From the NCBI GenBank assembly GCA_051294375.1, contig CM119263.1, forward strand, positions 27,034,631-27,098,630: DNA of 64,000 bases, written 5' to 3'. The position numbers were made by a program, and so were the translations under genes. A model generated the notes under the pieces. The model was not told the DNA's origin. It ran no database searches and saw nothing but the letters and a program-made list of their open reading frames with translations. Position 1 is the stretch's first letter; each line of letters starts with the position of its first letter. Below, one piece after another: positions 24,854 to 55,741 of this stretch. This stretch comes from Paraspadella gotoi. Its lineage: Eukaryota > Animalia > Chaetognatha.

Positions 24854-27800
24854 CTTGTTCCGAAACGCTCCGATGAAGAGATTAGCGTCGCGAAATCTTC
24901 CTTGCAACTTCGTCGTAGCTGAACACTGTCTCACGGCGATACATCAGGTCCACGGATCGTCCCCTGCTGGCGAGCCGGTCGCTGAGAAACATGGCGGTCG
25001 GTAAGGAATGCTCCTCTGAGAAGATGACCGCCTCCAGTTTGGGCGTGACCAAGCGTAGAAGGTGGAGGGTGTCCTCTTCGGTCATGGGATTCTCTTCAAA
25101 GTCGAACCTGTGGAGAATAGAAACATAGAGGACGATGACATTCATTAAATCAAAGCACTGGCGGACTAATATTGACTGTAAGGTTGGTCAAGAAGACAAT
25201 GTCGAATTGGCAATAATGACAAGATGACAATTGCTATGACAATCAGAATAACACTGTGAAAAAGCTCCAACACATTAATTAATTAGTTTAATTTAATATT
25301 ATTTTAATTTATCACTTCATGAAACATTTTAATTAATGTTTACTTAATTACTTAGTTTTACCTTTCGTCAATATGTTTGGTTACTTCAGCTCCATAATCA
25401 AATTCAGCCATAATGGTTACGTAAGTCGCCCTGTTATTATCCAAATTCAAACCTGCCCAACTCCGATTGATTTGAAGGCTGAAAGAAAGTGTTGTTGGAT
25501 CTCCTTGAAGGCCCGATTCGTGGAGACTTCTTTGTTGGCGCCATGATGGTGGCGAGGAGGTATTCCTTCTCCTCCTCCATCTCCCTCAACACCTCCGTCC
25601 ACACTTTCCACCGGTTCTTGTCAGGTGTTTCAACCCACAGAGTCGTCTGGTTGCTCTCCTCAGTCCCTTCCAGAACGAACATCAGGTTAGACTGATCCTC
25701 AAGCCTGTAGACCAACTTTTTGTCAAAAACAACGTGCTTGACCTCCAGCGGAGCCGAGTTGGCGATCACATCGAGGCCCAGGTTGTCCGCGTCGAACAAC
25801 TCGCAAAATACGAGAGCGTGTTGAAAGACGAACCCTTTCATCTTTGTCCGCAGTTTGTCGAGCTGTTGCTTAATGTCCCCGACGGATTTGTCCGACTCGC
25901 TGACCCACAAGTCGTCCCGATGTCTGATTTCACCCCAACTTTCCTTCTTTTCAGTGATGTTCTTCACGTGCATAAACATGTTGACGAAATCGGGAATCTC
26001 CTGCGCAATCCCCAGCAACTCGTCGAGTTTGGCCACCGCCTGATGCTCTTGAAGGTTCATAGTGGATTTGCGGATGTTTTCAATGAACATCTTGTAATGC
26101 ATCAAACGCTTCCAAGGCAAATCGATGCACAAATGCAACTCGGTTACGTTGAGCCCCGGATTTTCGGCCTCCAACTCTTTCCTCATCCTCTCGTAAATGC
26201 CGAGATTGTCCTGCACCTTCTGCGAAGCTTCGGTGCACTTGAGGACGTATTTTTTGTAAGCGTTCTTCATAACTTGTTTTGTGTTGGTGAACACTTTCAA
26301 CAGTTCAGTGGCGACGGGCAAAAAATAGGTATTCTGCCGATGCTCGTAACACCAGCGGATCACGGGATTGATGTTGTCCCTGTGCAAGGTGAGGATGGGC
26401 GTGGTAAGATCGATCACGTCCAGGATGAGCTTGGCAGAAGTGTCCGGGCCACTCTTCAAATTCATAGCGACTTCCGCCTAGGCGTGAAAAAAACGGTTAA
26501 TTTTAAAAATTTTGATTATCGGTTAAAATGCTAAAATTTAACCGGTTAACCGTTAAAATCGGTTAATTTTCCAACTATCATTATAATGATAAAATTAAGT
26601 AATAAAAAATATTTTTTATTTTCCATATTGTATTTTGACTTTCTTTTTTGCTATTTAAAATAGTTTAGAGATGAAACGAAAAATTCGTTGTAATAGCAAT
26701 TTTTATTTTTATTATTGTACATGTTTCGACTCTTAGTGTTACGAGTCTTCATCAGAAGATAAAAATTGCTATTACAACGAATTTTTCGTTTCATCTCTAA
26801 ATTATTTTCCATAAAAATTAATTAAAATAAAAAATTATAATAACAAAAATCAAAACAAAACATAAAAAAATCAACTAATGTTGGAGGTGGTAAAGTTAGT
26901 TAAGTAGAACTAACTTTTTAAAATTAAAATTGTCTGTTCCTTGTTATTTTAAAGAGGGAGATTTATTTGCTCTTTTTATGCCAAATGTTTGCTCTCTTCA
27001 ATGAGACAATAAGAGAGAAAAAGAAAAAGAGAAAAAAAGTGAAAGAGAGAGAGAGAAAGAGAGAATGTTTGATTACATGTTAAGGTCAGTTAGATTGAGA
27101 AAGGGAAATTAAAAGGAAATTGAAATTCAGTTAGTACAATAAAATTCATTTAGGCAATGTAAATAAGTAAGCAGTGATTAAAATTTGAAACTACGAAAGT
27201 AATAAATAACTACATTGTTAAATAATAAATATTGAAATAAATAAAAGTTAAGCTGAAAATGTAAAGTTGATAGTTTATATTTTTTTAATATGGTAAAATT
27301 ATAAGAAGAAAAAAAAGCTCTCTCTCTCTCTCTCTTATTATCATATATTGTAAAATTATACAAACCAAATTTGCACTGAAGAAGGCTAACAACCTTGCTG
27401 AAACATATTTTTTTTATTTAAAACGAATTCATAGTTTGAAATTAAAAATTATTTTTAACTTTTAATACTCACATCTATAATCTAAAATAGGGGAGAAAAG
27501 TTTTGAGAAATAGTTGACAGCCTTGCAAAGAAAAACCATAGTACTTAAAAGTTTAATTTAGTAAATTTTAAATTAACCGGTTAATTTTACCAAATTTTAC
27601 CAATTTTACCAAATTAACCGTTCGGTTAAAATTATTTTTAATCGGTGATTAACGGGTAACCGTTATTCAGTTAAGACGCCTACTTCCGCCTCCATGTTGC
27701 GTATCTCCTCCACTTTTGGTTTGTATTTCTCAACGACGTTAGCCATGTCATTTACATACTTCCCCTCTTTCTCAAACAGTTCCTCCACCGACTTTTGCCG

Positions 27801-29835
27801 TCTGAAACGGTTCTTCTCTATCTCGTTCATCATGTTCGACTGGAGAGCAAAGTCTTCAAACATCTCTGTCTTCCCCATTTGAAAGAGGATGAGCCGCTCG
27901 AGCTTCTTGACCTTCTCGTCGACGAAGACATCGGCCAAGGGTCCCTCCTTCAACTTCATCCAATTGGGATCCTCGAAGATTTTCACGATTTCCTGTTTGG
28001 TCTTTTCCTCGAAGGTCATCTTGATAAGCCCGTTGAGAGCCAGGCAGACGGTCTCCGCGTTGACTTCGGATTTCTTCAAAATCTTCTCATATATTCCGTG
28101 AACGTTTTGAGCGGCGAGGAAGGGAACGTTCTCCTTGACGACGGCGATGCGATTGACGCATCCCATGGCCGCTTGGAGTTTCTCCGTCTCTCCGTCGTCG
28201 TCAAACTTGTTCATCAAACCTATGAGCTGTTTCAGGATGATCGTCTCCGCGGACAAACCCTTGCAGCCGAAATCCAGCATCTCTTGCGGCTTCAACAGGA
28301 GGTAGATCCGAATCAACTTGATGGCGACGACGACGTTCTTGGAGAGCATGCCTCCGCCGACGACGATCTTTTTGACGACGGAGAGAAAGTTTGAGTTGTA
28401 CTGGATGAAAGACTTGATCCTCTCTCTCTTCGGACAAGTGACCAGAATGTGGATGCAGTCGACGAGCTTTTCCGCCAATAGACTCGCGTCGATCCTCAAG
28501 ACTTTTGACGCGCGACACGCCGCCGAGAGAAGCGCGAACTTTTCTTGATCGACGAAGTTGTTGGAGCACGGGACAAGCTTTCCGCAAACCGTCATCAGCA
28601 GAAGCGGCAGCGATTGCAGCAGTGAGTGGAAATGAAATTTGGAGAAGTTGGCGAGATCGTCGGAGGAATCCATTTCGACATCGGACTCCCGGGACAGAAC
28701 GACATCCCTATGAGATGAAGGAAATTCCAAAAATTGTCAATCATTTATTAATTAACACTGATGTCAAATTAAGGCAAGGTTTCTTGCTTATCGTCGAAAA
28801 CTATCTATAGATTGCTTATAATCATGCTAACCTCAAAAACATAGAGTGCTCCAAGCTTTGGTTAAAGACGCACATAACTTTCTTCAACGTCCTCAGGTCA
28901 TTCTCCAGCGTCTTCTGGTCACTTCGACCGAGACAAGAGGAGAATAGATGTCGCGTCCATCGCGAAAGGAATTTAGGAAATGAGCATCGAATGAGGAGTT
29001 TGGCCACGACGTTCCAGTTCACGCGCGATGAGAACTGAGGTTTTGTCACGGCAAATTTGGCGAATTAGAAATAATTGATTTTATACCGCGTTTGAAGCTC
29101 TAATGAACTAGTGAACTAATGAACTCGTGATGAACTAATGATGCGGTATATTTTCGTTTTAAATACTCCACAAAACAATCCGCAGAAATCTTTTCTCTTT
29201 GATAAGTTCCTTATCTTCTCAAAAAATAACCACACTCGGCTCAAATTAAACTTATATGGTGGACTAAAATCCACCAACTGTTCATCAGCGGCCATTGGTG
29301 CCGGAGGCAAGTCATTCGCCTCCCAACCCAAAGGTCCGGGGTTCTAGCCCGGTGGTCGCTTAGCAGTTAAGAGGGACGGGGCGCTAAACCCGCCTGTAAC
29401 ATGGTGCTACAGCCTGATCCGAAGCTCAGGGACTGCTTATATTGAACGGTTCTGTCACTAACACTAACACTAACACTAACTACTTTTGTAGTCAAACCAA
29501 GGCACCTGCTCTGCATCTCCCAGCCCCGACCCATACCTCGCATCTCTCTTTCCAACCAGCATCATCCACCAGTAACACTTTCTCACCCCAACTGGACTTC
29601 CCACCTGCATCTCCGCCATCTTCCTCTCCAAATCCGCCTTCGGGATGTAAACGTCGTCTTCTTCGTCGGACTCGGCCGTCGTGGTCACGGCGAAGAGTCT
29701 GTCGTACAGATTTTCCAAGATGTCGGCCAAATGTTGGTCGAGGGAGACGACATCAGTAGGGTGCGCCTCCAATCGGGCCACGAACTTTCCCACCGCCTCT
29801 TTGAGGCCTTCGCCCAGGCTGATCAAGTCGGCCAT
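21074..29835 (-). CDS. Multidomain protein: ARM-like repeats + RhoGEF DH-PH + divergent TIR-like domain + SAM domain
   Basis: Exons 29835-29605, 29034-28832, 28707-27684, 26477-25453, 25107-~24854, 24627-24298, 21473-21074; phases are consistent except around the indel-containing TIR exons. DH: RQKSVEELFEKEGKYVNDM and LCIDLPWKRLMHYKMFIENI. PH: WGEIRHRDDL...GFVFQHALVFC...KVWTEVLREM. ARM-like: ALNGLIKMTFEEKTKQEI. TIR-like: AVIFSEEHSLPTAMFLSDRLASRGRSVDL. SAM: RWSKGTVVEWMTSHGFHPHVVNFLKDCDGKTILRI. Confidence 0.75.
21590..21690 (-). mobile_element. 3' end of a DINE-1/Helentron-like non-autonomous element
   Basis: On the minus strand: (GAC)n microsatellite, then a GC-rich stem-loop GACCCGGCTTCGCGTCAAGCTGTC, then an A-run. 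Same layout as 56830-57002. Confidence 0.4.
22430..23670. repeat. Three dispersed copies of a roughly 80-bp unit interleaved with (CT)n tracts, intronic
   Basis: TTATTATCGCCATTTATxCCGCGCTTTTTTT...CAATACAAAA..CAAATTTACATC recurs near 22450, 23140-23240 and 23590. Confidence 0.7.
23870..24075. repeat. Degenerate minisatellite, unit about 20-22 bp (TCAATGAATGACTATCATCGCA-like)
   Basis: Tandem units directly visible. Confidence 0.75.
26479..27682. mobile_element. Non-autonomous hAT-like DNA transposon forming a predicted spliceosomal intron (intron 27683-26478 on the minus strand)
   Basis: 8-bp TSD CTTCCGCC at 26471-26478 and 27683-27690. TIRs TAGGCGT...ACGCCTA; the left end TAGGCGTGAAAA resembles the Ac terminus. 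Dense AACCG/CGGTT subterminal repeats at both ends. Deleting the element and one TSD copy fuses the two ORFs in frame (MEAEVAMNLK). Confidence 0.85.
26717..26755 (-). ncRNA. Minimal type I hammerhead ribozyme core (Penelope-like), inside a 43-bp perfect inverted repeat (26664-26706 / 26759-26801)
   Basis: Minus strand reads CTGATGA-A-GACTC-GTAACACTAA-GAGTC-GAAAC-ATGTA: intact CUGAUGA and GAAA boxes, 5-bp stem II and palindromic ACATGT stem III. The closing pairs of stem I are imperfect. Confidence 0.6.
29274..29480 (+). mobile_element. tRNA-derived SINE (Gly-CCC-like head), in intron 1 of the RhoGEF/TIR gene
   Basis: Head 29288-29360 has acceptor stem GCGGCCA/TGGTCGC, A-box-like TGGTGCCGGAGG, B-box-like GGTTCTAGCCC and loop CTCCCAA, but a broken anticodon stem. 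It is followed by a conserved body and an (ACACTA)n tail. Second copy at 53640-53797. Confidence 0.8.
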
Positions 29836-29887
29836 GTTGTTTTCTTTTGTTTTTTGTNNNNNNNNNNNNNNNNNNNNNNNNNCTTAA

Positions 29888-31104: not shown

Positions 31105-32470
31105 AGGCGTTAAGGGTGGTTAGCGGGTTAATTATGGTAATAATTTTAAATTTTTTTTTAATAAAATATCTTTAAAATGGTTTTTCAAAAGACCTAAAAC
31201 CCAGGTTTGGGCGAAAGTAAAATTTTACCAAAATACCAAAAACTACACCTTCTCCACTACCTCTGCCGTGAATCCGCCGCCTACACCCTGTATTCGTGCG
31301 GATCCTGCCGCCACCATATGGAAAGGATCCGCTACCCCACAGGGAAGGAGCTGCTGCTGCGAAAGCAGGGGCTCCCTTGCCGCCGCTACAGGGGCTAACG
31401 TAACCTTCCGCCGGAGCCCGTTGCAGGGAAGTATCTACCACCGCCGAAGGGAAGAGATCTCCGCCGCCATCGCTGCCGCCCGCCGTATGGGGACATCCGC
31501 ATCAGTGTGGACACGTGGTCGCCGTAGGGAAGGATCCTCCAACACGCCCACCAACACGCCACCCGCCGAAGGGAAGGGGATTTTCTTTTCTCCCAAATTA
31601 TAGTCTGAAATTTTCAAAATGTCAAAAGCCGCTGATAACATTCGAAACAGAATCGAAGACTATCATAACTTATTCCAAAAATTTCATTTAGATAGGAACC
31701 AAACATTCTTTATTAGGATTAATATTATCATTAAGATATTATCTGTAATAGATAATTTCTTAAACTCAATGGTGAAAGAAAATTTGAATGTGGAGACGAG
31801 AGAGACCAAGTAAACGAAAGGTTCTGAGGTTAACAAAATGAATGAATATAATCTTCAGGAAGCAAACCAAGAGAAAAAAAATTTTAAACATTACAATTTT
31901 AAATTAGTATAAAGGAGATAATAATCATCAGAATTCACTTGTAATATTTTGATAAATTGCTGACGTTTGTAACGACTTGACTCTCCGCCGGCCTTCGCCC
32001 AAGTTGGAACCCGTCCTCGCGTCGAGGACCCGTCTTCGCGTCAAGACCCTCCTCGCGTCTGAGACCCGTTGAACTTTCAACATCCAGGCTTCATGTGTTC
32101 TGACCTAAAGTTTATCCTCAAATATCCCATTTTTATTTGTCATCATACAAAAATAAAACTAATTTCTATAAAATCATCTTAATAATTATAATAATTAAAT
32201 AAATTCCTTATATGAGATTAAAATCTCGTGAGCATATCAACTAAAGATTTGCCCTATTAGCAATAAATTTGTACAAGAAAAAAAATTGATTAAATTTTAC
32301 TTCGCCGACCGCGGTTTTTGGCGGGTTTTGAAAAAATCTTACCTTAAAAATACTTATATTTTAACAAAAATTTTAAAATATTTACCTTAATTACCCTAAC
32401 CCTAAACCCTCTTAACCCTAAACTACCCTAACCCTAAACCACACCCCTAAAACTACCCTTAACCCTAACC
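31105..32470. mobile_element. Foldback-like element with long (about 140 bp) imperfect TIRs ending in telomere-like TTAGGG variants
   Basis: The reverse complement of about 31105-31235 aligns by eye with about 32290-32420. (CCCTAA)-like repeats at 32390-32470. Related end fragments at about 61100-61185 and 62290-62395. Confidence 0.55.
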
Positions 32471-34623: not shown

Positions 34624-34849
34624 TCTCTCTCTCTCGCTCGCTCGCAGGCTTTGCCTTGTCTCTTTTTCCAAAAACAATAAATAACACATCAATATAAGCA
34701 GAGATTATTAATTTATTTTCATAATCAGTGGAATAAAAGTTATTAAATTAATTCAAACCTCCTTCATTTCTCCACCTCATTCTCCTCCTACTTCTTTCCT
34801 TTCTCTATCTCTCTCTCTATTCGTCTTCCCACCTTTCCTCACTCCCTCT

Positions 34850-35419
34850 CTATCTCTTGCACGGCTCTTTGAAGTTTCCAAAGTTGAGCCTCATCTGTTC
34901 GAAAAAGAGAAAAGTGAGAATCGTTTGTGGCAGGAGCCTGATCCATGCGGGCAGCAACCCCTTGTAGAACGCCAAGGGTCCCGACGTCTTGAGGGTGTTG
35001 AGAAAGACGTGGAGCACCCCGTTCTGCCCGACGGGGGCGTTCAACACTCTCGTCTTCATCACGTCCAAGGGTTGCGACAGAATGGCGGCGGCCGTGCCCG
35101 CCAGGCAGGAGGAGGTCAAGTGGGTCGCCAGTCCGTCCTTTTGAATCATGGGCATCACGAGGGACATCTTGAAGATATCGTAGAGGCCCACCTGGCGGAA
35201 AGGTTGGTAGATAAGAGAGTTATGTCAACTTTTGATTGGTTTTTTGTTCTTTTTTTGTTTTGTTGTTTTTATGTTTTTTTTCGCTCTTTTTCATTTTCTT
35301 TTTTCTTTTGTTGTTTGCCCTCTTTCTTTCTTTACCTCCTACTATTTCTTTCTTTCTTTTTTTCTTTCTATCTTTCTTTCTTTTTTTCTTTCTTTTTATC
35401 TCCCTTTCTTTCTTTCTAC

Positions 35420-35454
<35 letters not shown>

Positions 35455-36912
35455 TTTATTTCTATCTTTCTTTCTATCTCCCTTTCTTTCTTTCTTTCTT
35501 TCTTTCTTCCTCCCTTTCCCCTCTCTCGCCTGTCCCACAGTGACGACGGTGGCCCTGGACATGCAGATCGTGGCTCCGCTAAAAAGTCCTTTTGGAATTC
35601 CTTCTTTGGGTAAGACTTGATAAGTCCTCGAAACGTGTTTGTAATTCCGTCTTTGAGCTTAGGGGAATTTATTTATAGATTATAAATGGAACATGATGAG
35701 GCGACTTTACCACGGTCTCTCTCTAAACCCTTCCTCTCTCCTTCTTCTCCGAGCCGGTTAATCCACACGGTCACTTTGCCCAGCTTTGGCAATGACCTTA
35801 GACTGACCGGACACAGCAACGGGAACGATAAGACCGTAAGTCAAGTTGGTCCGGGCGATGATAAAAGTGGATCAGGAGAGAGCTCGTCTCATTCTTTTCT
35901 ACTTCTCTTACATCGTCACAATTCTTCACCTTCACCTTACTTTTATTATTACTATTTCGTCTTCTCCAATGAGCTATGTGATTTAATAATAAATAAAGGA
36001 GTTAAATAATTGATTGATTGAGGTTCAGTGTTGTTTGGTTGATTTTTTATTGAATACAAGACGCCGGAATTTAAATTTGAGTTGTTAATCCCCCAAAATA
36101 TTCAATCAATTCCATTCCGGGATTCGCTAATTTATTGTAAAATTTTTCCATTGTTTAACCAGACACACCCGGTTCCACCCTCATATCGTCCTGCATCCGC
36201 ACATTGATCTTCCCGCCAGGCGTCGCCACAAATTCCGCCGCAGCAGCCGGCGAAGGCGGAGGTGGGCCACCTTCTGAAGGATGGTCATATCCGCGGCGTC
36301 GCAAGCCGCGCCCGACGCCATGATACCGTAGATGGCGAACCGCATCGTGGAGTAGGTTCCCTAGGGAGGTAGAAGGGGGGATTGAGGTGGTTTGGGGGTG
36401 GTGGTGGTGGTGGAGGTGGTGGTGGAGGTGGTGGAGATGGTAGAGTGGGGTAGGCAGTTTAACGAATTAAAATGTTAGACGAACATGATAATTGATAAAC
36501 TAATAGTTTCATTTTTTTAAATTTATTTTAGTAGTTATTTATTATACTTATAATATTATATTATTCTATTTTTCTTTGCTTTATCTCAATTATTTTTTAC
36601 TTTTCATTTAAATCTATGTAGATGGCGCGATGGCGTCATCCAACGTGACTAATTTTTATCGGAGGTTGTGGTTTCTACTTCACGACAAGGTGGCAGGTGC
36701 ACCCCCACATGCACCTGACGAAACAAGGAGGCCGAGAGTCCGTTGTAGAGACCCAAAGGTCCATTCCTCTCGACGACCCGCTTCCCCAGCGCCACCATCC
36801 CCAGCTTGGGTCGATCCTGCTGCGTCTGCAGATGTACCTTGACCAGATCGAGCGGATGAGTGAAGCAGGCCGCGCCCATCGACGCCAAGCCTCCCATCCA
36901 CCACTTGGCCAC
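34850..36912 (-). CDS. SLC25A10: Mitochondrial dicarboxylate carrier (SLC25A10/DIC-like)
   Basis: Exons 36912-36715 (KWWMGGLASMGAACFTHPLDLVKVHLQTQ...LYNGLSASLFRQ), 36360-36169 (TYSTMRFAIY...NVRMQDD), 35657-35530 (RRNYKHV...SRATVVTVGQ), 35191-34850 (QPLDVMKTR...FYKGLLPAWIRLLPQTILTFLFFEQMR). The middle exons carry a few indels. The short ATG exon is cut off by the 37233 gap but is seen near 40595-40606 and 44070-44081. Confidence 0.9.
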
Positions 36913-37242
36913 CTGGCGGAAAATGAGAGAGAAACAAAGGGCAGAGCAAAGAGAAAATTGTATAAGGTAAAAATTAAGGTGGTCAATCTAACAGTTCTTA
37001 AACATAGGTTTGATAAATTTACTATTTCGGATCAAATGGCAATACCAATATCATTTATGAATACAATGGTGTGGATTTCCATGGTGTTTTGTCGCTCACT
37101 TTATATAAACAAAAAGTTAGGGTCAAAAAAGATAAGCTTATTAATCATTAATCATCCGTGACGTGTGTTTTTTTTTAAGCTTACATCTGACTCGGGTCTT
37201 AACATTTATGATATTCTCATAAAGGACTCGCCNNNNNNNNNN

Positions 37243-40200
37243 ACAATTCTTCACCTTCACCTTACTTTTATTATTACTATTTTTCGTCTTCTCCAATGAG
37301 CTATGTGATTTAATAATAATAAAGGAGTAAAATAATTGATTGATTGAGTCAGTGATTGTTTGGTTGATTTTGTTATTGAATACAAGACGCCGGAATTTAA
37401 ATTTGAGTTGTTAATCCCCCAAAATATTCATCAATTCCATTCCGGGATTCGCTAATTTATTGTAAAATTTATCCATTGTTTAACCAGACACACCCGGTTC
37501 CACCCTCATATCGTCCTGCATCCGCACATTGATCTTCCCGCCAGGCGTCGCCACAAATCCGCCGCAGCAGCCGGCGAAGGCGGAGGTGGCCACCTTCTGA
37601 AGGATGGTCATATCCGCGGCGTCGCAAGCCGCGCCCGACGCCATGATACCGTAGATGGCGAACCGCATCTCTCTCTCTCTAATCCTCTCTCTCTCGGGCT
37701 CGGGCTCGCGGCTCGGTCTCGCTGTCGGCCTTCGCGGCTTTGTCATTGTCCTCGTTTTTTCCCAAAAACAATAAATAACACATCAATATAAGCAGGGATA
37801 TTAATTTATTTTTAATGAATCAGTGGATAAAAGTTATTAAATTTAATTCAAACTCCTTCATTCTCCCACCTCTTCCTCTTCCTACTTCTTTGCCTTCTCT
37901 ATCTCTGCTCTCTATTCGTCTTCCCACCTGTTCCTCACATCCCTCTCTATCTCTTGCAAACGGCTTTTGGTAAGTTTCCAAAGTTTTGAGCTCATCTGTT
38001 CGAAAAAAGAGAAAAGTGAGAATCGTTTGTGGCGGAGCCTGATCCATTGCGGGCAGCAAGACCCCTTGAGAAACGCCAAGGGTCCCGACGTCTTGGGGTG
38101 TTGAGAAAGAAGTGGAGCACGCCCGTCTGCCAGACGGGGGCGGTTCAACACTCTCGTCTTCATCAACGTCCAAGGTTGGCGACAGAATGGCGGCGGCCGT
38201 GGCCCGCCAAGGCAGGAGGAGGTTCAAGTGGGGTCGCCCAGTCGTCTTTTGAATCATGGGCACACCGAGGGAAACATCTTGAAGATATCGTAGAGGCCCA
38301 CTCTGGCGGAAGTTGGTAGATAAGAGAGTTATGTCAACCTTTGATTGGTTTTTTGTTCTTTTGTTTGTTTTTTTTGTTGTTGTTGTTTTTTTTATGTTTT
38401 TTTTCGGCTCTTTTTCATTTTCTTTTCTTTATTTTGTTGTTTGTCCCTGCATGTCTTTCTTTACTTACTTCCTACTATTTCTTTTTCTTTCTTTTTTTCT
38501 AGTTTTCCTTTCCTTTTTTTTCGTTTCTTTTTTATCTCCCTTTTTCTTTTTTCTATCTTTCTTTTTTCTTCTTTCTTTCTTGTTCTTTCTTTCTTTCTTT
38601 CTGTGCTTTCTTCTGTTTCTTTCCTTTTTTCTTCTTCCTCCTTCCCTCTCTCGCTCTGTCCCACAGTGACGACCACGGTGGCCCTCTGGACAGATGCAGA
38701 TGCGTGGCTCCGTCGCTAAAAAGTCTCCTTTGGGAAAAATTCCTTCTTGGTAAGATTGAATGAGTCCAGTCGAAAACGTGTTTGTAATCCGTCTTATAGA
38801 GCTTAGGGGAGGAATTTATTTAATAGATATAAATGGAACTATGATGAGGCGACTTACAACAGGTTCTCATCGTCTCTAAACCCTTCCCTCGTCTCACTTC
38901 TTTTCTCGGAGGCCGGTTTTAATCAACTACGGTCACTTGGCCCTAGCTTTGGGCTAATGACGTTAGCTGACCATGACGCGACACAGCAACAGGGAACAGA
39001 ATAAAGACTCTTAAAAGTACCAAGTTGGTCCGGGCTGATGAATTTAAAAAGCTGATGTCAGGAGAGAGCTCGTCTCATTCTTTTCTGCACTTCTCTTACA
39101 TTCGTCATCAATCTTTACACCTTCACCTTACTTTTAATTATTACTATTTGTCGTTTCTTCTCAATAGCTAATGTGATTTTAAATAATAACAAGGAGTAAA
39201 ATAATATGATTTGATTGAGTCATGATTGTTTGGTTTGATTCTTTTTTATTGAATACAAGACGTCCCGGAATTTAAATATTGAGAGTTGTTAATCCCCAAA
39301 ATATTCATCATTCATTCCGGATTCGGCTTAATTTATTGTAAATTTTATATTCCTCATTGGTTTTAACACAGACACACCCGGTTCCACCCTCATATCGTCC
39401 TGGCAATCCGCACATTGATCTGCCCGGCCAGGCGGGCTCCCGCGCACAAATGCCGCCGCAGCAGCGCGGCGAAGGCGGAGGTGGCCCACCTTCTGATAGG
39501 ATGTCATATCCGCGGTCGTGGCAACGCGCGCTCCGTAGTCGCATGATAACGCGTAGATGGCGAAGCCGCATGGTGGAGTAAGGTTTCCCTAGGGAGGTTA
39601 GAAGGGGGGATTGAGGTGGTTGCGGGCTGGGGTGGTGGGGTGGCGTGGTGGGTGGTGGTGGGGTGTGTTTAGATGGTAGTAGTGGGGTAGGCGAGTTTAA
39701 AACTTGAATAAAAATGTTAAGTAACGAAACATGATTAATGGTGATAACACTAATAGTTTCATTTTTTTTAAATTTATTTTGTTAGTAGTTTATTTTATTA
39801 TACTTATAATATTTTATATTATTCCTATTTTCTTTGCTTTATCTCAATTAATTTTTTACTTTTCATTTAAATCTATGTAGATGGCGCGATGGCGTCATCC
39901 AACGTTCCACCTAATTTTTATCGGAGGTTGTGGTTTCTACTTCACACGACAAGGTGGCAGGTGCACCCCACATGCACTGAACGAACACATAGGAGGCCGA
40001 GAGTCCGTAGTAGAGACCCCAAGAGGTCCATTCCTCTCGACGACCTCCGCTTTCCCAGCGCAACCATCCCCAGCTTGGTCGATCCCTGGCTGCGTCTGCA
40101 GTATGTACCTTGACCAGAACGAGCGGATGAGTGAGCAGGGCGCGCCATAGAACGCCAAGCCTGCCCAATCCACGCACTTGGCCACCTTGGCGAAAATGAG

Positions 40201-41250
40201 AGAGAACAAGGGCAGAGCAAAAGAGAAAATTGTATAAAGGTAATAATTAAGGTGGTAATCTAACAGTTTCTTAGACGATATGGTTTGATAATTTACTATT
40301 CGGGAATCAAATGGCATACCAATAGTCATTTATGATACAAATGGTGTGGGATGTCCATGGTGTTTTGTCGCTCACTTTATATAAAAGAAAGTTAGGGTCA
40401 AAAAAGATAAGCCTTTATAATCTTATCATCCGTGAGTGTGTTTTTTTTAAGCTTAACATCTGATCGGGTCTTAACATTTTGATAATTCTCATGAAAGGNN
40501 NNNNNNNNNNNNNNNNNNNNNNNCATAAAGGACTCGCCTAAATAGTTCGAATAAACAGTTTTTCGTCTAAAAAAAAACAGAAATGACTGACCCTTGGTCG
40601 CCCATCTCCGTCGCTCAAGCTTAGACTCCAGAATCCAGTGATGGAAAGATCCATGACGTCAACTCCCTCGTCAACCGACGAACACCTCCGACTCGCGACT
40701 CAAATATTTTCCTTTTGATTTTCTCTTCAAAATCGATCCAGCGTCGCCGCGCATCCTCGTCGATCTTCGGCCTTCCAATCCGTTGGAATCCGCTTGGAAA
40801 GTTGAACGGAAAGGCGGCGTTCTAAGGACATTTTGTTTTGGCGGGAAAATTTTTGAGGGGGAAAATAAAACAATTAATGGGTAAAACTGGCGATTAGGAA
40901 TTATTGTGGGATGGGTGAGGACCATGCGTCAAAAATAAAATTTGAGATTATATTTATTATGGTTTATTCTTAATAAAAAAAAATATAACCTGTCTTTAGC
41001 TTCTTCTTGAATAGCCGAATTCTTTCTTCTGTTATTAACTTTCTCTAAGTTTTATAAATGTGATTAAAATTGTCCTAATATAAAATCAATAATAAATAAC
41101 ATTTTTTAACTCTCGAGAATCGCCCGCGCTACTTTAAAAATTTTGAAACGAACGTTGAAAGTTTAAATTCCATTTCTGGAATTCCCCTTCCCCTCAATTA
41201 AATCGGCCATTTCAGATCTGGAATTAAGTGGCACGGGGAAAGAGGAGAGA

Positions 41251-41287
<37 letters not shown>

Positions 41288-44200
41288 CTCTCTCTCTAAT
41301 CCTCTCTCTCTCGGGCTCGGGCTCGCGGCTCGGTCTCGCTGTCGGCCTTCGCGGCTTTGTCATTGTCCTCGTTTTTTCCCAAAAACAATAAATAACACAT
41401 CAATATAAGCAGGGATATTAATTTATTTTTAATGAATCAGTGGATAAAAGTTATTAAATTTAATTCAAACTCCTTCATTCTCCCACCTCTTCCTCTTCCT
41501 ACTTCTTTGCCTTCTCTATCTCTGCTCTCTATTCGTCTTCCCACCTGTTCCTCACATCCCTCTCTATCTCTTGCAAACGGCTTTTGGTAAGTTTCCAAAG
41601 TTTTGAGCTCATCTGTTCGAAAAAAGAGAAAAGTGAGAATCGTTTGTGGCGGAGCCTGATCCATTGCGGGCAGCAAGACCCCTTGAGAAACGCCAAGGGT
41701 CCCGACGTCTTGGGGTGTTGAGAAAGAAGTGGAGCACGCCCGTCTGCCAGACGGGGGCGGTTCAACACTCTCGTCTTCATCAACGTCCAAGGTTGGCGAC
41801 AGAATGGCGGCGGCCGTGGCCCGCCAAGGCAGGAGGAGGTTCAAGTGGGGTCGCCCAGTCGTCTTTTGAATCATGGGCACACCGAGGGAAACATCTTGAA
41901 GATATCGTAGAGGCCCACTCTGGCGGAAGTTGGTAGATAAGAGAGTTATGTCAACCTTTGATTGGTTTTTTGTTCTTTTGTTTGTTTTTTTTGTTGTTGT
42001 TGTTTTTTTTATGTTTTTTTTCGGCTCTTTTTCATTTTCTTTTCTTTATTTTGTTGTTTGTCCCTGCATGTCTTTCTTTACTTACTTCCTACTATTTCTT
42101 TTTCTTTCTTTTTTTCTAGTTTTCCTTTCCTTTTTTTTCGTTTCTTTTTTATCTCCCTTTTTCTTTTTTCTATCTTTCTTTTTTCTTCTTTCTTTCTTGT
42201 TCTTTCTTTCTTTCTTTCTTTTTCTTCTGTTTTCTTATCTTTTTTCTTTTCTTCCTCCTTCCCCTCTCTCGCTCTGTCCCACAGTGATACGACGGTGGCC
42301 CCTGGACATGCAGATTCGTGGCTCCGCCTAAAAAAGTCCTCTTGGAATTCCTTCTTTGGTAAAGACGTTGATGAGTCCATCGAAAACGTGTTTGTAATCC
42401 GTCTTTGAGCTTAGGGGAAATTTATTTATACGATTATAAATGGAACATGATGAGGCGACTTACAACAGGTTCTCCTCTCTCTAAACCCTTCCTCTCTCCT
42501 CTTTCTCCGAGCCGGTTTAATCCACACGGTCACTTGCCCTAGCTTTGGCTAATGACTTTAAGACACTGACCGGACAGCAGCAACGGGAACGATAAGACTT
42601 AAGTAAAGTTGGTCCGGGCGATGATAAAAGCTGATCTCAGGAGAGAGCTCGTCTCATTCTTTCTACTTCTCTTACATCAGTCATCAATCTTCACCTTCAC
42701 CTTACTTTTATTATTACTATTTTCGTTTCTCGCAATGAGCTATGTGATTTAATAATAAAAGGAGTAAAATAATCTGATTGATCTGAGTCTGATTGTTTGG
42801 GAGAATGTAGATTCTTTTAATTGAATACAAGACGTCCGGAATTTAAATTTGAGTTGTTATCCCCCAAGATATTCATCAATTGCATTCACGGTTCGCTAAT
42901 TTTATTGTACAATTTTTCCATTGTTTAAGCCAGACAGCAACCCGGTTCCACCTCATATCGTCTGGGCACCGCACATTGAATCTGCCCAGCCCAGGCGTCG
43001 CCACAAATCCGCCGCAGCAGCGCGGCGAAGGCGGAGGTGGCCACCTTCTGAGGATGTCATGATCCGCGGCCGTCGCAACGCGCGCCCGACCGCGCATGAT
43101 ACCGTAGATGGCGAACCGCATGGTGGAGGTAGGTTCCCTAGGGAGGTAGAAGAGGCGGGATTGAGTGGTTTGGGGGTGGTGGTGGTGGAGTGGTGGAGAT
43201 GGTAGAGTGGGGTAGGCAGTTTAACGAATTAAAATGTTAAGACGAACATGATTAATTGATAAACTAAAGTTTCATTTTTTTTAAATTTATTTTAGTAGTT
43301 ATTTATTATATTATAATATTTATATTATTATATTTTTCCCTTTGCTTTATCTCAATTAATTTTTTACTTTTCATTTAAATCTATGTAGAGTGGCGCGATT
43401 GGCGTCATCCAACGTTCGACTAATTTTTATCGGAGGTTGTGGTTTCTACTTCATCGAAACAAGGTGGCAGGTGCACCCCACATGCACCTGACGAACACAT
43501 AGGAGGCCGAGAGGTCCGTAGTAGAGACCGCCAAGGTCCATTCCTCTTCGACGGACCCCGCTTTCACCAGCGCCCACCATCCCCAGCTTGGTCGGATCCT
43601 GCTGCGTCTGCAGATGTACCTTGACCAGAATCGAGCCGGATGAGGAGCAGGCCGCCATAGACGCGCAAGCCTCCAACACGCATTGGCCACCTTGGCGAAA
43701 CATGAGAGAGAAACAAGGGCAGAGCAAAGAGAAAATTGTATAAAGGTGAATAATTAAGGTGGTCAATCTAACAGTTTCTTAGACATATGGTTGTAATTTA
43801 CTATTTCCGGAATCAAATGGCAATACCAACATCATTTATGATACAATGGTGTGGATGTTCCATTGGTGTTTTGTCGCTCACTTTATATAAAAAAAAGTTA
43901 GGGTCAAAAAAGATAAGCCTTATTAATCATTATCATCCGTGACGTGTGTTTTTTTTTAAGCTTAACATCTGACTCGGGTCTTAACATTTATGATAATTCT
44001 CATAAAGGCTCGCCTAAATAGTTCGAATAAACAGTTTTTTTGTCTAAAAAAAACAGAAATGACTGACCCTTGGTCGCCCATCTCCGTGCTCAAAGCTTAG
44101 ACTCCAGAATCCAGTGATGGAAGATCCATGACGTCACTCCCTCGTCAGACCGACGAACACCTCCGACTCGCGACTCAAATATTTTCCCTTTTGATTTTCT

Positions 44201-49731: not shown

Positions 49732-51993
49732 ATGGCGACGGAGGCGTTCCATTCTGCGTTCCAACTCTTCGCCCGCCACTCGACGCTTCTCCCACTCGAT
49801 CTCTCTCCATCCACTTTTCACAAAAACTACTTTCCCCTTTGGGATCCGGGCGTCGGAGGGACGAATCAGGGTAATAATGAAATTATCATTTTTATTATTA
49901 TTATTAACGCATTATAAGTACGTTGATAGATCAGAGACGAGTCTTTTTTATGAAGTGAATTAATTGTACTAATTTTAAAATGTAATTTAGCCATTTTTAA
50001 GAAAAAAAAGTTGTCTCTCTTGCTTTTATTCTTTGAACTTTTTGAATTAAGTAATCGCATTTGAATAGATTTAATGTTATGTCAAAATAAATTGTTTCAT
50101 CTTCAGTCTCGACGGAATCGTCTCGTCGACGGAAATCCTTCTTCGTCGAGGACATCCTCGATCTCCGCGGCGGCGACGTCGACGTCGCCTGGAAACTCTC
50201 GTCTTCTTCTTCGTCGTCCTCGTCGTCGCGTCTGGAAGCCGCAGCCAAACCCTCGCTCTTTCGTCCCTTTCACGGGTTCCCCTTCGCCGACACCTCCGCC
50301 GCCGTCGCCGCTGCCACCGTCAAACCGCCGGACGCTTTTCCGCTCGACTTTGGCCGACGCCGAGACCCGCCGCAGTTTCCGCCGCATCCTGCCCTCGCCG
50401 CCGCCGCCGCTGCAGCAACGGCGCATCGTCCGCCGGTCTTCCCTCCTTCTCCCCACCACCTCCTCGCCCACAGTCTTTCATCGGCGACTTCAGGCGCCTC
50501 GATTTGGTCGTCGACGCTGCGTCCGTCTTCGGAGGTCGACGACGACGACTGCCTCATCGATCCCGGAGACTCGGAGTTTGAGATTAGAGACTCGGGTGAG
50601 AATTGGGTTTGCCGGTTTGGTGCCAAGGTTTAACGTACACTACAGAATATATTATTTAAGTTTAACAAGTTAAAAACAGACAGACAGAGATTAAGACAGA
50701 GAATAAATAATTTGAAAGAAAAGGAACATAACTTAAAGACCGCACGTTACCGTTGTGGGTTTGTTATAGTTGATATAGACTGAGGAAGAGATGGGAAAGA
50801 GAAAGATATTAGACTATATACAAGTTTGATCGCCAAACGCCCAAAATTTGTTTTTTGGAATTCAACTTTAAAAATAATTCAGATCTTGAAGTCGTTGAAT
50901 GGGCCGATTGAAAGTTACGCTTTAGGTTGAACTAGATAAGAATTTCGTGAGGTTCTTGATTATAAAATTAGAAAATAAATATACGACTGATATTTCGAAC
51001 CTTCCAGACAAACCCCTCGATTCTCACCCAAATGCAATAAAACTCCGCGACAAAGATTCGGACAAACCCAGTTCCTCCTCCTCCTCATCTTCTTCAAAGA
51101 CCCTCGGAGGTCAAGGGTCATCCACGACGGAGAACAAGAAGAAGAAATCGCGAACGACTTTCACCGGACATCAGATCTTCGAACTGGAGAAGCAGTTCGA
51201 ACTCAAGAAGTATCTCTCGTCGTCGGAACGGTCCGAGATCGCGCTACACCTCAAAGTCACCGAGACGCAGGTATTTTTTTTTTTTTTTGTGGAACTTGGA
51301 AAATTTGTGAAAGAATGGAACGAAAAAAAAACAGGTTTTGACTTCGAAAGGAATGACTGTGTTGTTACCAATCAATCACACTACTATGCACGACCGACTG
51401 GCCCGAAAGAGTGAAAGGTTATTGTAACTTAGGCCTGTGGTCGGTCGCCTCAATGGTTTTTAGTTCGCCGCGAGTACTGGCGAATAAAAGACGGAATTCC
51501 GATGTCATAAATACACAGACTAATGTAATGTCGCGTCATGTCATGTCATGTCACGAGAAATACACGTGAAAATAAAGGCACTGCGGCACAACACATTGGA
51601 TGAACCGATTTTGTTTAAACAGATTTTTATGTTGTTTTCCTCATTGTCAATGAATATTGCAAAATTACAGTCAATATGTGACCAAGGAATAATCGTTTAT
51701 TCCGCTAGTTTAAAATCGTTATTTATAATTGTTTACTATTATTATATGCTCATTTGTTTTCTTCTCTCTCCTTGCAACGAAGGTAAAAATCTGGTTTCAA
51801 AATCGACGAACGAAATGGAAGAAACAAGAGAACATCAGTAACGCCGAAGCGGCCGAGTTTCGCATCGGCGGCGAGAAGCACGCCGACTCCGCCAGCCGAC
51901 AGAACGCCGCCGGCGCCGCGAACGCCGCCGCCATCAAGAACTTGGCGGAGATGAGGCGGGGATCAACATCGTTGGGTCGGCTCCACGCCGCGG
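49732..51993 (+). CDS. NK7: NK7-class (NKL, ANTP) homeobox transcription factor
   Basis: Exons 49732-49870, 50107-50595 (eh1/TN motif SFFVEDIL; one apparent frameshift near the C-run at about 50450), 51008-51270 and 51783-51993. Homeodomain [44 protein letters not shown]|[15 protein letters not shown], followed by the NK7-type extension [11 protein letters not shown] further 3' exon is likely. Confidence 0.9.
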
Positions 51994-52588
51994 GTAAGGG
52001 ACGACCTTTTATGATCAATTTTACTATTATAATTATAATTATTTCAATTCTATAAACATTATTCGCTATATTTTTTCTGTATGATTAATAACTCATTCAA
52101 AAAACTCAAAAAGAAAAAAAATGACTTTGAACTGCGACTACCGGAAGAAGATGAACCGAAGTATAAAACCGACCATATAACCTTTTTCTTAGACCGAGTT
52201 TATTTTTAGCCTTCTTGCCTTCTTGGTCTTGCTCATATCCGTTTCATTTTTTCTTAAATCCTTTATAGTTACGAACGAAAAACTTCTTCATTTCAACCAC
52301 ACTCCTGGACGAGGTGCCATCCATTTTCCATTCGAACGTCAGGCAAGGCATATATTGTTATTGTTTTTCTTTCCATTTTTTCGATATTCTACCGAGAAAA
52401 CGAGTAAATTTTCTTATGACTCAGCATCAAGTTCATGAACACGCGATCATGGGTCCGCAAGAACTCTTATGAGAAATTATATAACTAATTAAAGATCCAG
52501 TTGATTTGACTAAAACTCAAAACTCAAAACAGTTCATTGGAAAAAGTCGTATTGATTGATGAAGCAATATGTATTAAAAAAGTTATAT

Positions 52589-53303: not shown

Positions 53304-54884
53304 CTAATACCACTTCTCTTGAGACTGCGACGACAGATCCTTGACCAGTATGAGGCCCATATAGCTAATCTTAAGCGAGACTAGCTTGTCTCCACCGCAC
53401 TGTTCCGAATCCAAGTAAACCATCTTGAGCACCGTCCCGGCTCGCAACATCTGTACGAAGCCGAGATAACATGGGCGAAATCCTGGCATGTCCTTCATTT
53501 CGCGATCGTCCACACACTTGTGGGAGTCGAGAGGATCCGCACCGAAGCGGAGCTCGTACGCGCACCGAGAACCGCGCCCGTACAAGTGGTACTGAAAGAG
53601 AGTGAAAGATGAAAGATAAAAATTTTTGACTAAAATTCCCCAACCGTTCATCAGCGGCCATTGGCGCAGGAGAAAAGTCATTCGCCTCTCAACCCAAAGG
53701 TCCGGGGTTTTAGCCTCGCAGTTAAGAGGGACGGGGCGATTAACCCGCCTGTAACACGTTCTTACAGCCTGATCCGAAGCTCAGGGACTGCTTATATATT
53801 GATATATATATACTATTTATATAGTATATAACTAACTCATAACAATTATTTCTGTCTCTTCAGTTAGTTAATTTAGTGGACGGGGTACTCGTAGTAAGCT
53901 ACAAATTTTGATTATATATATTGGATTATATATTATAACCTAATGTGTTTATAGTTTTTTATTACATTTCTTACCAACGAATAGGCCCAGTAGATGGCGT
54001 CACGCTTGACGAGAATCCCTTCCCCAACTTGTTCGAAGACATCGCTGTGAACGTCCTTCAGCCAGAAGGGGCGTTGCCAATCTTTGAAGGTCGTGTTCAC
54101 GACAGACAAATCTGTTGCAGGTTTTACAATCCTGTTGTTTCTCACGTACTTGACTCCAGAAATATTCACAGGGTTGAATTCTAGACCCTCGAGCTGAAAG
54201 TGGCCAACTGAGGAAGATGAAAAAAAGCGATAATTAAAACAGTTTTCAGCAGCATGAAAACTCATCGAATTTCTCTCCGTAACAACTAATCCCCAAATAT
54301 AAGATTATCATATGAATTGAGACCTCGGTTTCTTATGTTTTCCTCATATGTGATTTTTTTAATTTTGAAACATTAATTTTTTTATTATAAGTTTTGTCTT
54401 TAATTTATTGAATAATTAAGTTCGATAAATTACCTTGTGACGGGACCGGTGAGTGGCTGCGCCCTTTGCGTCTTTTCGGACCTGAATGAAAAAATATAAA
54501 ACGGTTTCCTTAGAAAATTTCAAAAAACAGAAGAATTATGAGCAAAGTGAGCTACGAAAATAGATTTAATTCAAAGGAAAAGAATCGTATATAATAATTA
54601 TTACGTCAACAATGAGACTCACCGTCGTTTAATTCCAAAGACTCGTCACTGGAGTTTCGCAAATCGCGAAGCCCGAGATGGGTCAACTTTGTCACCTCGG
54701 TCTCTGTCAAGATGCCACCAACGACCAAGCAAGCGAGAAAGGTCAGGCCGACCAATGCCATGGTTGAAGGGACGTGCCGACATGGCGTTGCTTGGCGAAG
54801 CGTCAAGCTTCGAACGTTTGACTCGTCGTCGTCCATTGCTTTTTCTGAACACAGAGGATTAATTTCCAGGTTGATGGCGGACAT
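53304..54884 (-). CDS. TNF-superfamily ligand (eiger/EDA-like), type II membrane protein
   Basis: Exons 54884-54623 (hydrophobic MALVGLTFLACLVVGGILT), 54481-54434 (basic KRRKGR, furin-like), 54207-53975 (VGHFQL...W...ILVKRDAIYWAYSL) and 53591-53304 (CYLGFVQMLRAGTVLKM...SYMGLILV). All phases are consistent. Confidence 0.8.
53640..53797 (+). mobile_element. Second copy of the tRNA-derived SINE, in the last intron of the TNF-like gene
   Basis: Colinear with 29274-29441 (TTCATCAGCGGCCATTGG...CAGCCTGATCCGAAGCTCAGGGACTGCTTATA). Confidence 0.85.
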
Positions 54885-55741
54885 ATTATTTATTTATAAA
54901 TTTCAAATTTTTTTACGTAAACTTTGTAAAGTTTTCTGCGTTCGCTTTCGTGCCAGATTGAACTCCATCGTCCGCTCATTCTCCATTTATAGTCATATTC
55001 TAGAAATAAACCGAGTTGTGCCGTTATTTACCCAGGAGGAAGTTTCCGTCGTTGGCACCATAATGACGCCATCGGTACAGAAAAGTTATTTTTGCGCTTC
55101 GGGATGACAAATATAGTTTTCTTGGAACTTCACCCTTACGGATGCGTAATTTTACCTTTATTTTGAGATTGCGACGTACTTGTTATGGCGAGACAAGCGG
55201 TCGAAGCGTTGGGTGCAGGTCGGCGGGCAGACCCCGCGGATACTTAAAAGTTAAAACACGTATAGGTTTATCACTTAATGTCTGGTTTTTTCTAACCATC
55301 CTTTCAGAAAACAGTATACGGTCTTCTTATCGCATCATTGATTATATTTACCGTATTGATGATAGATGAGGTTATAAGTTATAACTGCCATATTGGCGAC
55401 AATGATGGACTGGCTAAACCGAATTTTCTTTCTCTCCGGATATTTTACGTACAAGATAACGGTGTTAAAACCGTTAATCACTTAATGCTCCCCTGGCCTA
55501 TCCTATAACACCATAAAAGAACAAGTTTGAGCAAACAATGTCGGATCTGCCCACGATAATTAAGCGGTAATAAGCTAATCCGATGATAAATCATGGTAAT
55601 ATTTTCTGGCTTTCTATTTGTTATCTTAACAGATTATAACAAATTGTAACATAATAAATCATAACAGACTTCTTAATAAATATTTGTAAAAATATATAAA
55701 TCAATTGATCTATCAATCATTACCAGTAGCTGCGCCAATAC

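What the first reader, a model, noticed from the sequence alone, without database searches (positions are those of the whole stretch)
26471..27690. hAT-like transposon that builds its own frame-preserving intron (candidate Introner) inside a RhoGEF DH exon
Seen: a 1204-bp element with TIRs TAGGCGT/ACGCCTA and an 8-bp TSD (GGCGGAAG on the coding strand) splits one coding exon. The last G of the upstream TSD plus the TIR gives the donor GAA|GTAGGC (27683). The far TIR plus the first G of the downstream TSD gives TTTTTTTCACGCCTAG| (26478), with its own pyrimidine tract. Splicing leaves 8-2=6 extra nt, so M-E-A-E-V-A-M becomes M-E-A-E-A-E-V-A-M in frame. The flanking ~1-kb exons are both free of stops and frameshifts. 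Established: 8-bp TSDs and subterminal repeats typify hAT elements, and TIR-element Introners are known from algae such as Aureococcus and Micromonas. Inference: because both TIRs start TA, any G-N6-G target would yield a clean GT-AG intron in either orientation, so this family could be an intron-generating system in this animal lineage.
Basis: partly seen in the sequence, partly recalled or inferred. Interest (0 to 1): 0.88.

Follow-up and report, generated by a model that had tools for sequence, protein, structure and literature searches.

The report
Transposon turned into a working intron
A 1.2-kb piece of likely jumping DNA sits in the middle of a protein-coding exon of an animal gene, and assembled public transcripts lack exactly that piece, so it is most likely spliced out as a newly gained intron that adds two amino acids; whether its relatives do the same in other genes is untested.

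Summary
Both splice sites straddle the borders (G|T…A|G). Contigs in 3 of 4 public runs laid leave the exon at 26477 and continue in the upstream exon. That is the predicted splice, with 6 extra bases, not the empty site. One contig also skips the next GT-AG intron, so it is mRNA-like. Two of the three runs look like one data set. Related copies share one end exactly at 26479 and are 89-94% alike. So this is most likely a hAT-type transposon that became an intron. Left open: a DNA excision footprint would read the same; no empty allele was seen; no genome was held to test the family as an Introner. hAT Introners, border-spanning splice sites and added codons are already in print. The scan noted two similar cases on other DNA, neither shown spliced. 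Verdict: a clean, transcript-supported new member of a known kind.

The parts
26479..27682 (-). non-autonomous hAT-like DNA element, 1204 nt, 24% GC, no long ORF (longest 79 codons)
26478..27683 (-). new intron, 1206 nt, GT..AG, phase 0; each splice dinucleotide is one target-duplication base plus one element base
27683..27690 (-). upstream copy of the 8-nt target duplication; its last G is the G of the donor
26471..26478 (-). downstream copy of the 8-nt target duplication; its first G is the G of the acceptor AG
27676..27682 (-). terminal inverted repeat, end A (7 nt); supplies donor positions +2 to +8
26479..26485 (+). terminal inverted repeat, end B (7 nt); related copies in other loci start at exactly this place
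   Evidence: X1 record 4, X5 record 13 = X6 record 21, X9 record 26
27573..27662 (.). subterminal TAACCG/CGGTTA repeats, end A (5 copies)
26494..26566 (.). subterminal TAACCG/CGGTTA repeats, end B (6 copies); the last one gives a branch-point-like TTAAC about 19 nt before the acceptor, followed by a T run (role inferred)
26666..26799 (.). nested 134-nt hairpin element (MITE-like) with ends TAGAGATGAAA, arms 49 of 50 alike, flanked by 8-mers that match at 6 of 8; very high summed depth in the DNA run
27684..28707 (-). upstream half of the split exon (1024 nt): armadillo-like region (weak lead only) and start of the DH domain (from alignment to P0002)
25453..26477 (-). downstream half of the split exon (1025 nt): RhoGEF (DH) domain, Pfam E=1.2e-6, then a probable PH region (by alignment to P0002)
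25108..25452 (-). ordinary 345-nt GT-AG intron, skipped in X9 record 25 and retained at low depth in X5/X6; internal control that these contigs come from spliced RNA
24882..25107 (-). next coding exon, in frame, to a stop at 24884-24882

Best explanation
A non-autonomous, likely hAT-type DNA transposon landed in a coding exon at an 8-nt site that begins and ends with G, and it is most likely removed by the ordinary spliceosome as a new intron, because transcript-like contigs join the two exon halves exactly at the GT and AG formed across its borders. How it works: insertion duplicated the site (shown). Both element ends begin TA, so G+T makes the donor and A+G makes the acceptor (shown). The element's own end B carries a T run and a branch-point-like TTAAC inside its subterminal repeat (sequence shown, role inferred). 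Splicing removes 1204+2 nt and leaves 7+7 of the 16 duplicated bases, a net gain of 6 nt, two residues, in frame (shown in contigs). The two residues fall in the length-variable linker after the first DH helix, so they are probably harmless (inferred from two distant homologues). That let the allele persist long enough to drift from its family (inferred). The family looks like an ordinary dispersed transposon with a built-in chance (about 7% of coding sites are G-N6-G) of making such an intron when it hits an exon.
For: (window 24990-26800; 4 of 9 holder runs laid): X6, X5 and X9 each have a contig that leaves the reference behind 26477 with 30 letters identical to window 27684-27713, the predicted spliced continuation; the empty site would leave at 26479 with other letters. 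X9 record 25 is one 3063-nt contig that covers 25450-26477, carries 1053 further letters upstream (the upstream exon is 1024) and skips the 345-nt GT-AG intron downstream. In X9 two listed records account for all depth at the junction (19.7 expected, 18.9 seen). Canonical GT and AG, 15 of 20 pyrimidines and no other AG within 52 nt upstream. Transposon hallmarks. Family: 7 listed records (X5/X6 twins counted once) match end B at 89-94%, three of them starting at exactly 26479; summed depth over end B in the DNA run is about 30-70 times the single-copy exon (a rough proxy, the tool warns it is no copy number). Linker span is 46 residues here, 44 for the empty site, 57 in P0001 and 35 in P0002. 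149 of 2270 coding 8-mers of this gene are G-N6-G and 148 of them would take the 6 nt without a stop.
Against: No run is on record as RNA; RNA nature is inferred from the second skipped intron. Only the acceptor side was laid, so the donor is read from the loose letters and end A of the family was not examined. No sample was shown to hold both the element in its DNA and the joined form in its RNA; no displayed X1 record spans the junction. Only 24 of 114 loose-end rows and 32 of 690 piece rows were shown, and contigs drop rare variants, so an empty or footprint allele is not excluded. The pre-insertion state is reconstructed, not observed. The inverted repeat is only 7 nt and no transposase was found.
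Confidence: 0.87

Rival explanations
1. The +6 form is a DNA excision footprint, not a splice product: the element jumped out in some lineages, losing the innermost base of each repeat, and the element-bearing allele in this assembly is a broken or poorly spliced one.
For: hAT excision often leaves most of both repeats, with in-frame +6 revertants (recalled for Ac/Ds, not from a call). The footprint and the splice product would be the same letters. One search does not pair DNA and RNA of one animal. An earlier scan note on another genome (e1-7683199, unchecked) describes a similar exon insertion that turned out polymorphic.
Against: The footprint would have to fall by chance exactly on a canonical GT and AG with a pyrimidine tract. 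The element copy has drifted: it carries the minority letter at 3 places of end B (26514, 26570, 26595 in X1) and a nested element with decayed flanks, which is hard to square with a long-lived null allele in an otherwise intact 757-codon frame. In X5/X6 the exon contig breaks at 26477 just as it breaks at the partly retained neighbour intron, as expected if unspliced RNA runs into the element (inference; an empty allele would also break there).
Confidence: 0.07
2. The family is a true Introner of this animal: it prefers GC-rich, G-bounded sites, which in an AT-rich genome are mostly exons, and has made introns in many genes. This extends the best explanation and does not exclude it.
For: The only two other flanks visible (table 7) resemble this target: the 8 letters beside end B match it at 5 of 8 and 6 of 8 in the better orientation, which 5.4% and 1.0% of window 8-mers do. 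One of the two is G-N6-G (9.6% of window 8-mers in either orientation). A third record (X1 record 3) aligns 6 nt into the flank. End B carries acceptor signals of its own.
Against: Two flanks, noticed after the fact, one side only, duplication assumed. One flank is AT-rich and its 8-mer is G-N6-C, which gives no GT donor. No second copy in the 64-kb window. The family is tens of copies by a rough proxy, so a 7% rule yields few introns. The flipped orientation has a poorer acceptor.
Confidence: 0.22
3. An old intron stood here and the transposon-like ends are coincidence or a later insertion into it.
For: No close orthologue was found to show the empty site; repeat-plus-inverted-end pairs arise by chance in AT-rich DNA.
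Against: Removing the element and one repeat leaves a continuous frame with no room for an intron. The mRNA keeps a tandem 6-nt scar. Related copies end at exactly 26479. Subterminal repeats sit at both ends only.
Confidence: 0.03

Closest known systems
hAT-classified Introner families in Gozashti et al. 2025 (PMC12130899, Dataset S2 rows read: Fusarium oxysporum fam2 '8bp TSD, TA/TA termini', gt..ag; Panicum virgatum fam14; tunicate Styela clava fam1, 8-nt TSD, 'co-opt both'; Polarella fam9; Pelagomonas fam2)
   Same: Non-autonomous TIR element with 8-nt duplication spliced as a spliceosomal intron; TA-starting ends (Fusarium row); splice sites drawn from the target; one animal example.
   Different: Those are families of 4 or more introns in unrelated genes; here one intron is shown. 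The Styela row has 4 of 6 non-canonical donors, this one is canonical with a junction seen in contigs. Whether any listed family has this exact G|T..A|G, +6 geometry could not be read from the table.
Polarella glacialis introner-like classes (bioRxiv 10.1101/2020.10.14.339549, passages read)
   Same: Splice sites that span the element/duplication border (classes 9, 12); 8-nt duplication classes that work in both orientations with a bias to one (6, 8, 10, 3).
   Different: Dinoflagellate, thousands of copies, relaxed GC/GA donors; the simple 8-nt classes take a whole splice site from the duplication and carry the other.
Aureococcus and Florenciella Introners (Gozashti et al. 2022, PMC9860276, passages read)
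   Same: 8-nt duplication with codons added to the protein (Aureococcus, +12 nt); both sites recruited wholly or partly from the target (Florenciella and 'complex cases').
   Different: Here +6 nt and each dinucleotide is half element, half target. That paper found Introners in only two animal groups among 835 animal and land-plant genomes.
Maize Ac/Ds (hAT founder; PMC3260210, passages read; Ds-as-intron papers seen as titles in its reference list only)
   Same: 8-bp duplication, short inverted ends starting (C/T)AG, hexamer repeats in the terminal 200 bp, non-autonomous derivatives with unrelated interiors, Ds spliced from exons. The nested element's end differs from the Ac end at 1 of 11 letters.
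   Different: Plant mutant alleles; Ds splicing is usually imprecise or partial (recalled). The inverted repeat here is 7 nt, not 11.

Membership tests
hAT superfamily (non-autonomous) | 8-bp target site duplication | tested here: met
   perfect 8-nt repeat; definition in PMC3260210 and PMC10368747 passages
hAT superfamily (non-autonomous) | short terminal inverted repeats starting (C/T)AG | tested here: met
   7 nt, starting TAG; shorter than the 11 nt of Ac
hAT superfamily (non-autonomous) | short subterminal repeats clustered, asymmetrically, in both ends | tested here: met
   5 and 6 copies in the terminal 150 nt, 0 inside
hAT superfamily (non-autonomous) | dispersed copies sharing the terminus | tested here: met
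   end B only: related records at 89-94%, three starting at 26479; end A not examined
hAT superfamily (non-autonomous) | other copies also flanked by 8-bp duplications | not testable with these tools
   only one flank of two other copies was shown
hAT superfamily (non-autonomous) | an autonomous partner encoding a hAT transposase with the same ends | not testable with these tools
   no ORF over 79 codons in the element; no genome held
Introner | element inserted in an exon and removed by splicing with the frame kept | tested here: met
   junction in contigs of 3 of 4 runs, one of which skips a second intron; footprint rival not excluded
Introner | at least 4 similar introns in genes of different paralogy groups (PMC12130899 Methods passage) | not testable with these tools
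   no genome; no second copy in the window; metagenome scans gave nothing related
Introner | empty orthologous site in a relative or another individual | tested here: inconclusive
   no empty-site row among 24 of 114 loose-end rows shown; no close orthologue; the two other organisms listed hold next to none of the words
DH (RhoGEF) domain protein, host gene | Pfam RhoGEF above the curated cut-off | tested here: met
   29.3 bits against 27.6 for the downstream half alone; 4 of 5 representative hits align over the DH-PH region

The most novel reading that the evidence does not exclude
This animal carries an active-until-recently hAT Introner whose ends are pre-built half splice sites: TA termini complete GT and AG at any G-N6-G target, the transposase-binding repeat doubles as a branch point, and a taste for GC-rich GG(C/T)G-type sites steers copies into exons of an AT-rich genome, each time adding exactly two codons. 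That would be a transcript-supported, canonical Introner in animals, where almost none are known, with a testable rule for where introns are gained.
Probability: 0.22. Interest if true: 0.75.

Novelty: new member of a known kind. Interest (0 to 1): 0.52.

Why it matters
How animals gain new introns is a long-standing question, and cases with the mechanism still readable are scarce: the 2022 survey found Introners in only two animal groups, and the one animal hAT row seen in the 2025 table is mostly non-canonical. Here the target duplication, both element ends, the family and the spliced junction are all visible at one site, and the mRNA keeps a 6-nt scar. It gives a simple, countable rule (TA ends + G-N6-G target = GT-AG intron, +2 codons) that can be checked in any genome with TA-ended hAT elements, and it speaks to the open point raised in PMC3443670 (passage read) of whether some transposons are predisposed to be spliced by their ends and target choice. 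As a single event it confirms known theory; it would be a larger result only if the family has done this many times.

Tried and rejected
No whole genome is held, so no copy census. No RNA holder was listed on record. Metagenome scans: exact end-B pattern 0 hits; looser pattern 3 hits, chance matches without the rest of the element. Protein searches for orthologues: none for either exon half; five weak representatives, the closest 38% over 91 residues, of unknown genomic or transcript origin, so no evidence on intron position. No solved-structure hit for the DH half. ESM Atlas gave only sub-0.9 armadillo-like leads for the upstream half. Rfam hits in the element are hairpin miRNA models far below their cut-offs, explained by the nested hairpin. 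Alternative splice pairs: a GC donor at 27689 with the same acceptor would restore the empty-site mRNA exactly, and GT 27677 would add 12 nt (the translations printed are in a wrong frame, one search corrects them); neither appears among the rows shown. An RNA read that looks like the empty site would therefore be ambiguous. I dropped an estimate of splicing efficiency from contig depths: the 40.7 continuing at the junction in X6 may sum spliced and unspliced paths. My first exon joins were off by a few bases and were corrected. The lineage was not placed beyond 'animal, probably invertebrate' (NK7-like label recalled). Papers not held: Huff 2016, Giroux 1994, Dennis 1988. Literature searches; none showed this locus or family, but the library lacks most subscription papers, the bioRxiv supplement of the Polarella study is closed, and the 2022 supplement was cut when stored, so the exact geometry may be in print.

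Full report
Observation. On the minus strand a 1204-nt element (27682..26479) is flanked by GGCGGAAG on both sides. Its ends are inverted for 7 nt. It is 24% GC between exon halves of 50-51% GC. The hexamer TAACCG or its complement occurs 5 times near end A, 6 times near end B, never in the interior and 0.27 times per kb elsewhere. A repeat-plus-inverted-end pair alone is weak in AT-rich DNA (6 in the window), but one with a GC-rich 8-mer arose in 1 of 20 shuffles, and this one marks the block's edges. The element holds no ORF over 79 codons.

Host gene. The downstream half scores as RhoGEF above Pfam's cut-off and aligns to DH-PH proteins at 26-32%. The upstream half has only weak armadillo-like leads. 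With the element spliced and the next intron (25452..25108) removed, the frame is open for 757 codons from 28706. No close orthologue is in the collections searched. The window is from an animal, probably an invertebrate (homeodomain and carrier genes; the NK7-like label is recalled).

The splice test. Eleven runs were listed, nine holding the stretch, none on record as RNA. I laid four of them on 24990-26800, the acceptor side. A spliced form should leave the reference behind 26477 with the letters of 27684 onward; an empty site should leave at 26479 with other letters. X6, X5 and X9 each show the first. X9 record 25 is a single 3063-nt contig: 1053 letters upstream of the junction (the upstream exon is 1024), then 26477-25450, then a jump over the 345-nt GT-AG intron. 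It is therefore mRNA-like whatever its label. In X9 the listed records explain all depth at the junction. X5 and X6 share contig lengths and depths and are probably one data set, so there are at most two independent sets. X1 covers the neighbour intron at full depth, as DNA should; none of its displayed records spans the junction. No empty-site row is among the 24 of 114 loose-end rows shown, which is not proof of absence.

The family. Seven listed records match end B at 89-94%; three start at exactly 26479, which fixes the terminus independently. Summed depth over end B in X1 is about 30-70 times that of the exon, a rough sign of tens of copies. This copy carries the minority letter at three places, so the insertion is not brand new. 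A 134-nt hairpin element with ends close to the Ac end is nested at 26666-26799, with flanks alike at 6 of 8 and far higher depth. Two other flanks were visible. Their last 8 letters match this target at 5 of 8 and 6 of 8, which 5.4% and 1.0% of window 8-mers do; one is G-N6-G. This is a hint of target preference from two post-hoc cases, not a result.

Mechanism. Shown: duplication of a G-bounded 8-mer; TA at both element ends; GT and AG formed across the borders; a joined form with 7+7 bases kept, +6 nt, phase 0. Inferred: that the spliceosome makes the joined form; that the T run and the TTAAC 19 nt before the acceptor serve as pyrimidine tract and branch point; that the two residues are tolerated because the linker after the first DH helix spans 35 to 57 residues in two homologues against 44 or 46 here. 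About 6.6% of this gene's coding 8-mers are G-N6-G and 148 of 149 would accept the 6 nt without a stop. Orientation matters: flipped, the 3' end has a poorer tract and two AGs 8 and 13 nt upstream. A GC donor inside the upstream repeat would restore the original mRNA exactly but is not among the rows shown.

Rivals. The serious one is an excision footprint: loss of the innermost base of each repeat gives the same letters in DNA (hAT footprint behaviour recalled). I could not pair DNA and RNA from one animal. I give it 0.07, because it needs chance agreement with canonical splice signals and long survival of a null allele. An ancient intron is nearly excluded by the anatomy (0.03). The genome-wide Introner reading (0.22) is an untested extension.

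Known systems. Read: PMC12130899, parts 1-2 of 7, passages, and the rows of supplementary file 8 (the family table) that hold 'hAT', 'tunicates' or 'Aureococcus'; passages of PMC9860276 and rows of its cut supplement, PMC11282704, PMC3443670, PMC10368747, PMC3260210 and bioRxiv 10.1101/2020.10.14.339549. hAT Introners are listed in plants, fungi, dinoflagellates, pelagophytes and one tunicate, including a Fusarium family with 8-bp duplication and TA/TA ends. Border-spanning splice sites, two-orientation 8-nt classes and added codons are described. So the element works like an Introner. It meets the testable structural marks of a non-autonomous hAT. Membership of the Introner class, which needs four or more introns in unrelated genes, could not be tested. 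Two earlier scan notes on other genomes describe similar exon insertions; I did not check them.

Verdict. Observation confirmed. Single intron gain by a hAT-like element, supported by transcript-like contigs: 0.87. New member of a known kind, interest 0.52; 0.75 if a census shows a family of such introns.

Noticed in passing
window 26666-26799: Nested 134-nt hairpin element whose end differs from the maize Ac end at 1 of 11 letters; summed depth several hundred to a thousand times single copy in the DNA run, and abundant in the RNA-like runs. It also has TA ends, so the same G-N6-G rule could apply to this much larger family.
   Followed up: partly
window 25108-25452: The neighbouring 345-nt intron has the same 6 letters (CAGGTT) across both its borders ('both' = 6), a proto-splice-site repeat; it is partly retained in X5/X6 (depth 7 against 41).
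   Followed up: no
window 26332-26437: In DNA run X1 the exon contig breaks at 26361 and the next piece has depth 143 against 225, as if a second allele or copy branches off here; the other branch was not among the rows shown.
   Followed up: no
X1 records 3 and 4 (aligned to window 26473-26574): Two related copies have about half the single-copy depth (131 and 103 against 225), a weak hint that some insertions of the family are heterozygous.
   Followed up: no
window 34700-44000: A mitochondrial carrier gene (Pfam Mito_carr) appears in three tandem copies; the second and third are 84-87% alike to the first with many small gaps and lie among N gaps. Likely uncorrected long-read duplicates, or decayed copies.
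   Followed up: partly
window 50926-52055: Homeobox gene split by an intron inside the homeodomain; looks NK7-like (label recalled, not from a call).
   Followed up: no
window 53304-55107 and 59007-59957: Two similar multi-exon genes on the minus strand; one exon has a weak TNF-family hit (E=0.011, below cut-off). Possible tandem TNF-like ligands.
   Followed up: no
window 32390-32470: Short tract of degenerate TTAGGG-like repeats inside AT-rich DNA, possibly part of another mobile element.
   Followed up: no
window 29476-29856: Open frame on the minus strand just after an N gap, upstream of the RhoGEF-like gene, with a possible donor near 29603; may be a first exon or a separate small gene.
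   Followed up: no
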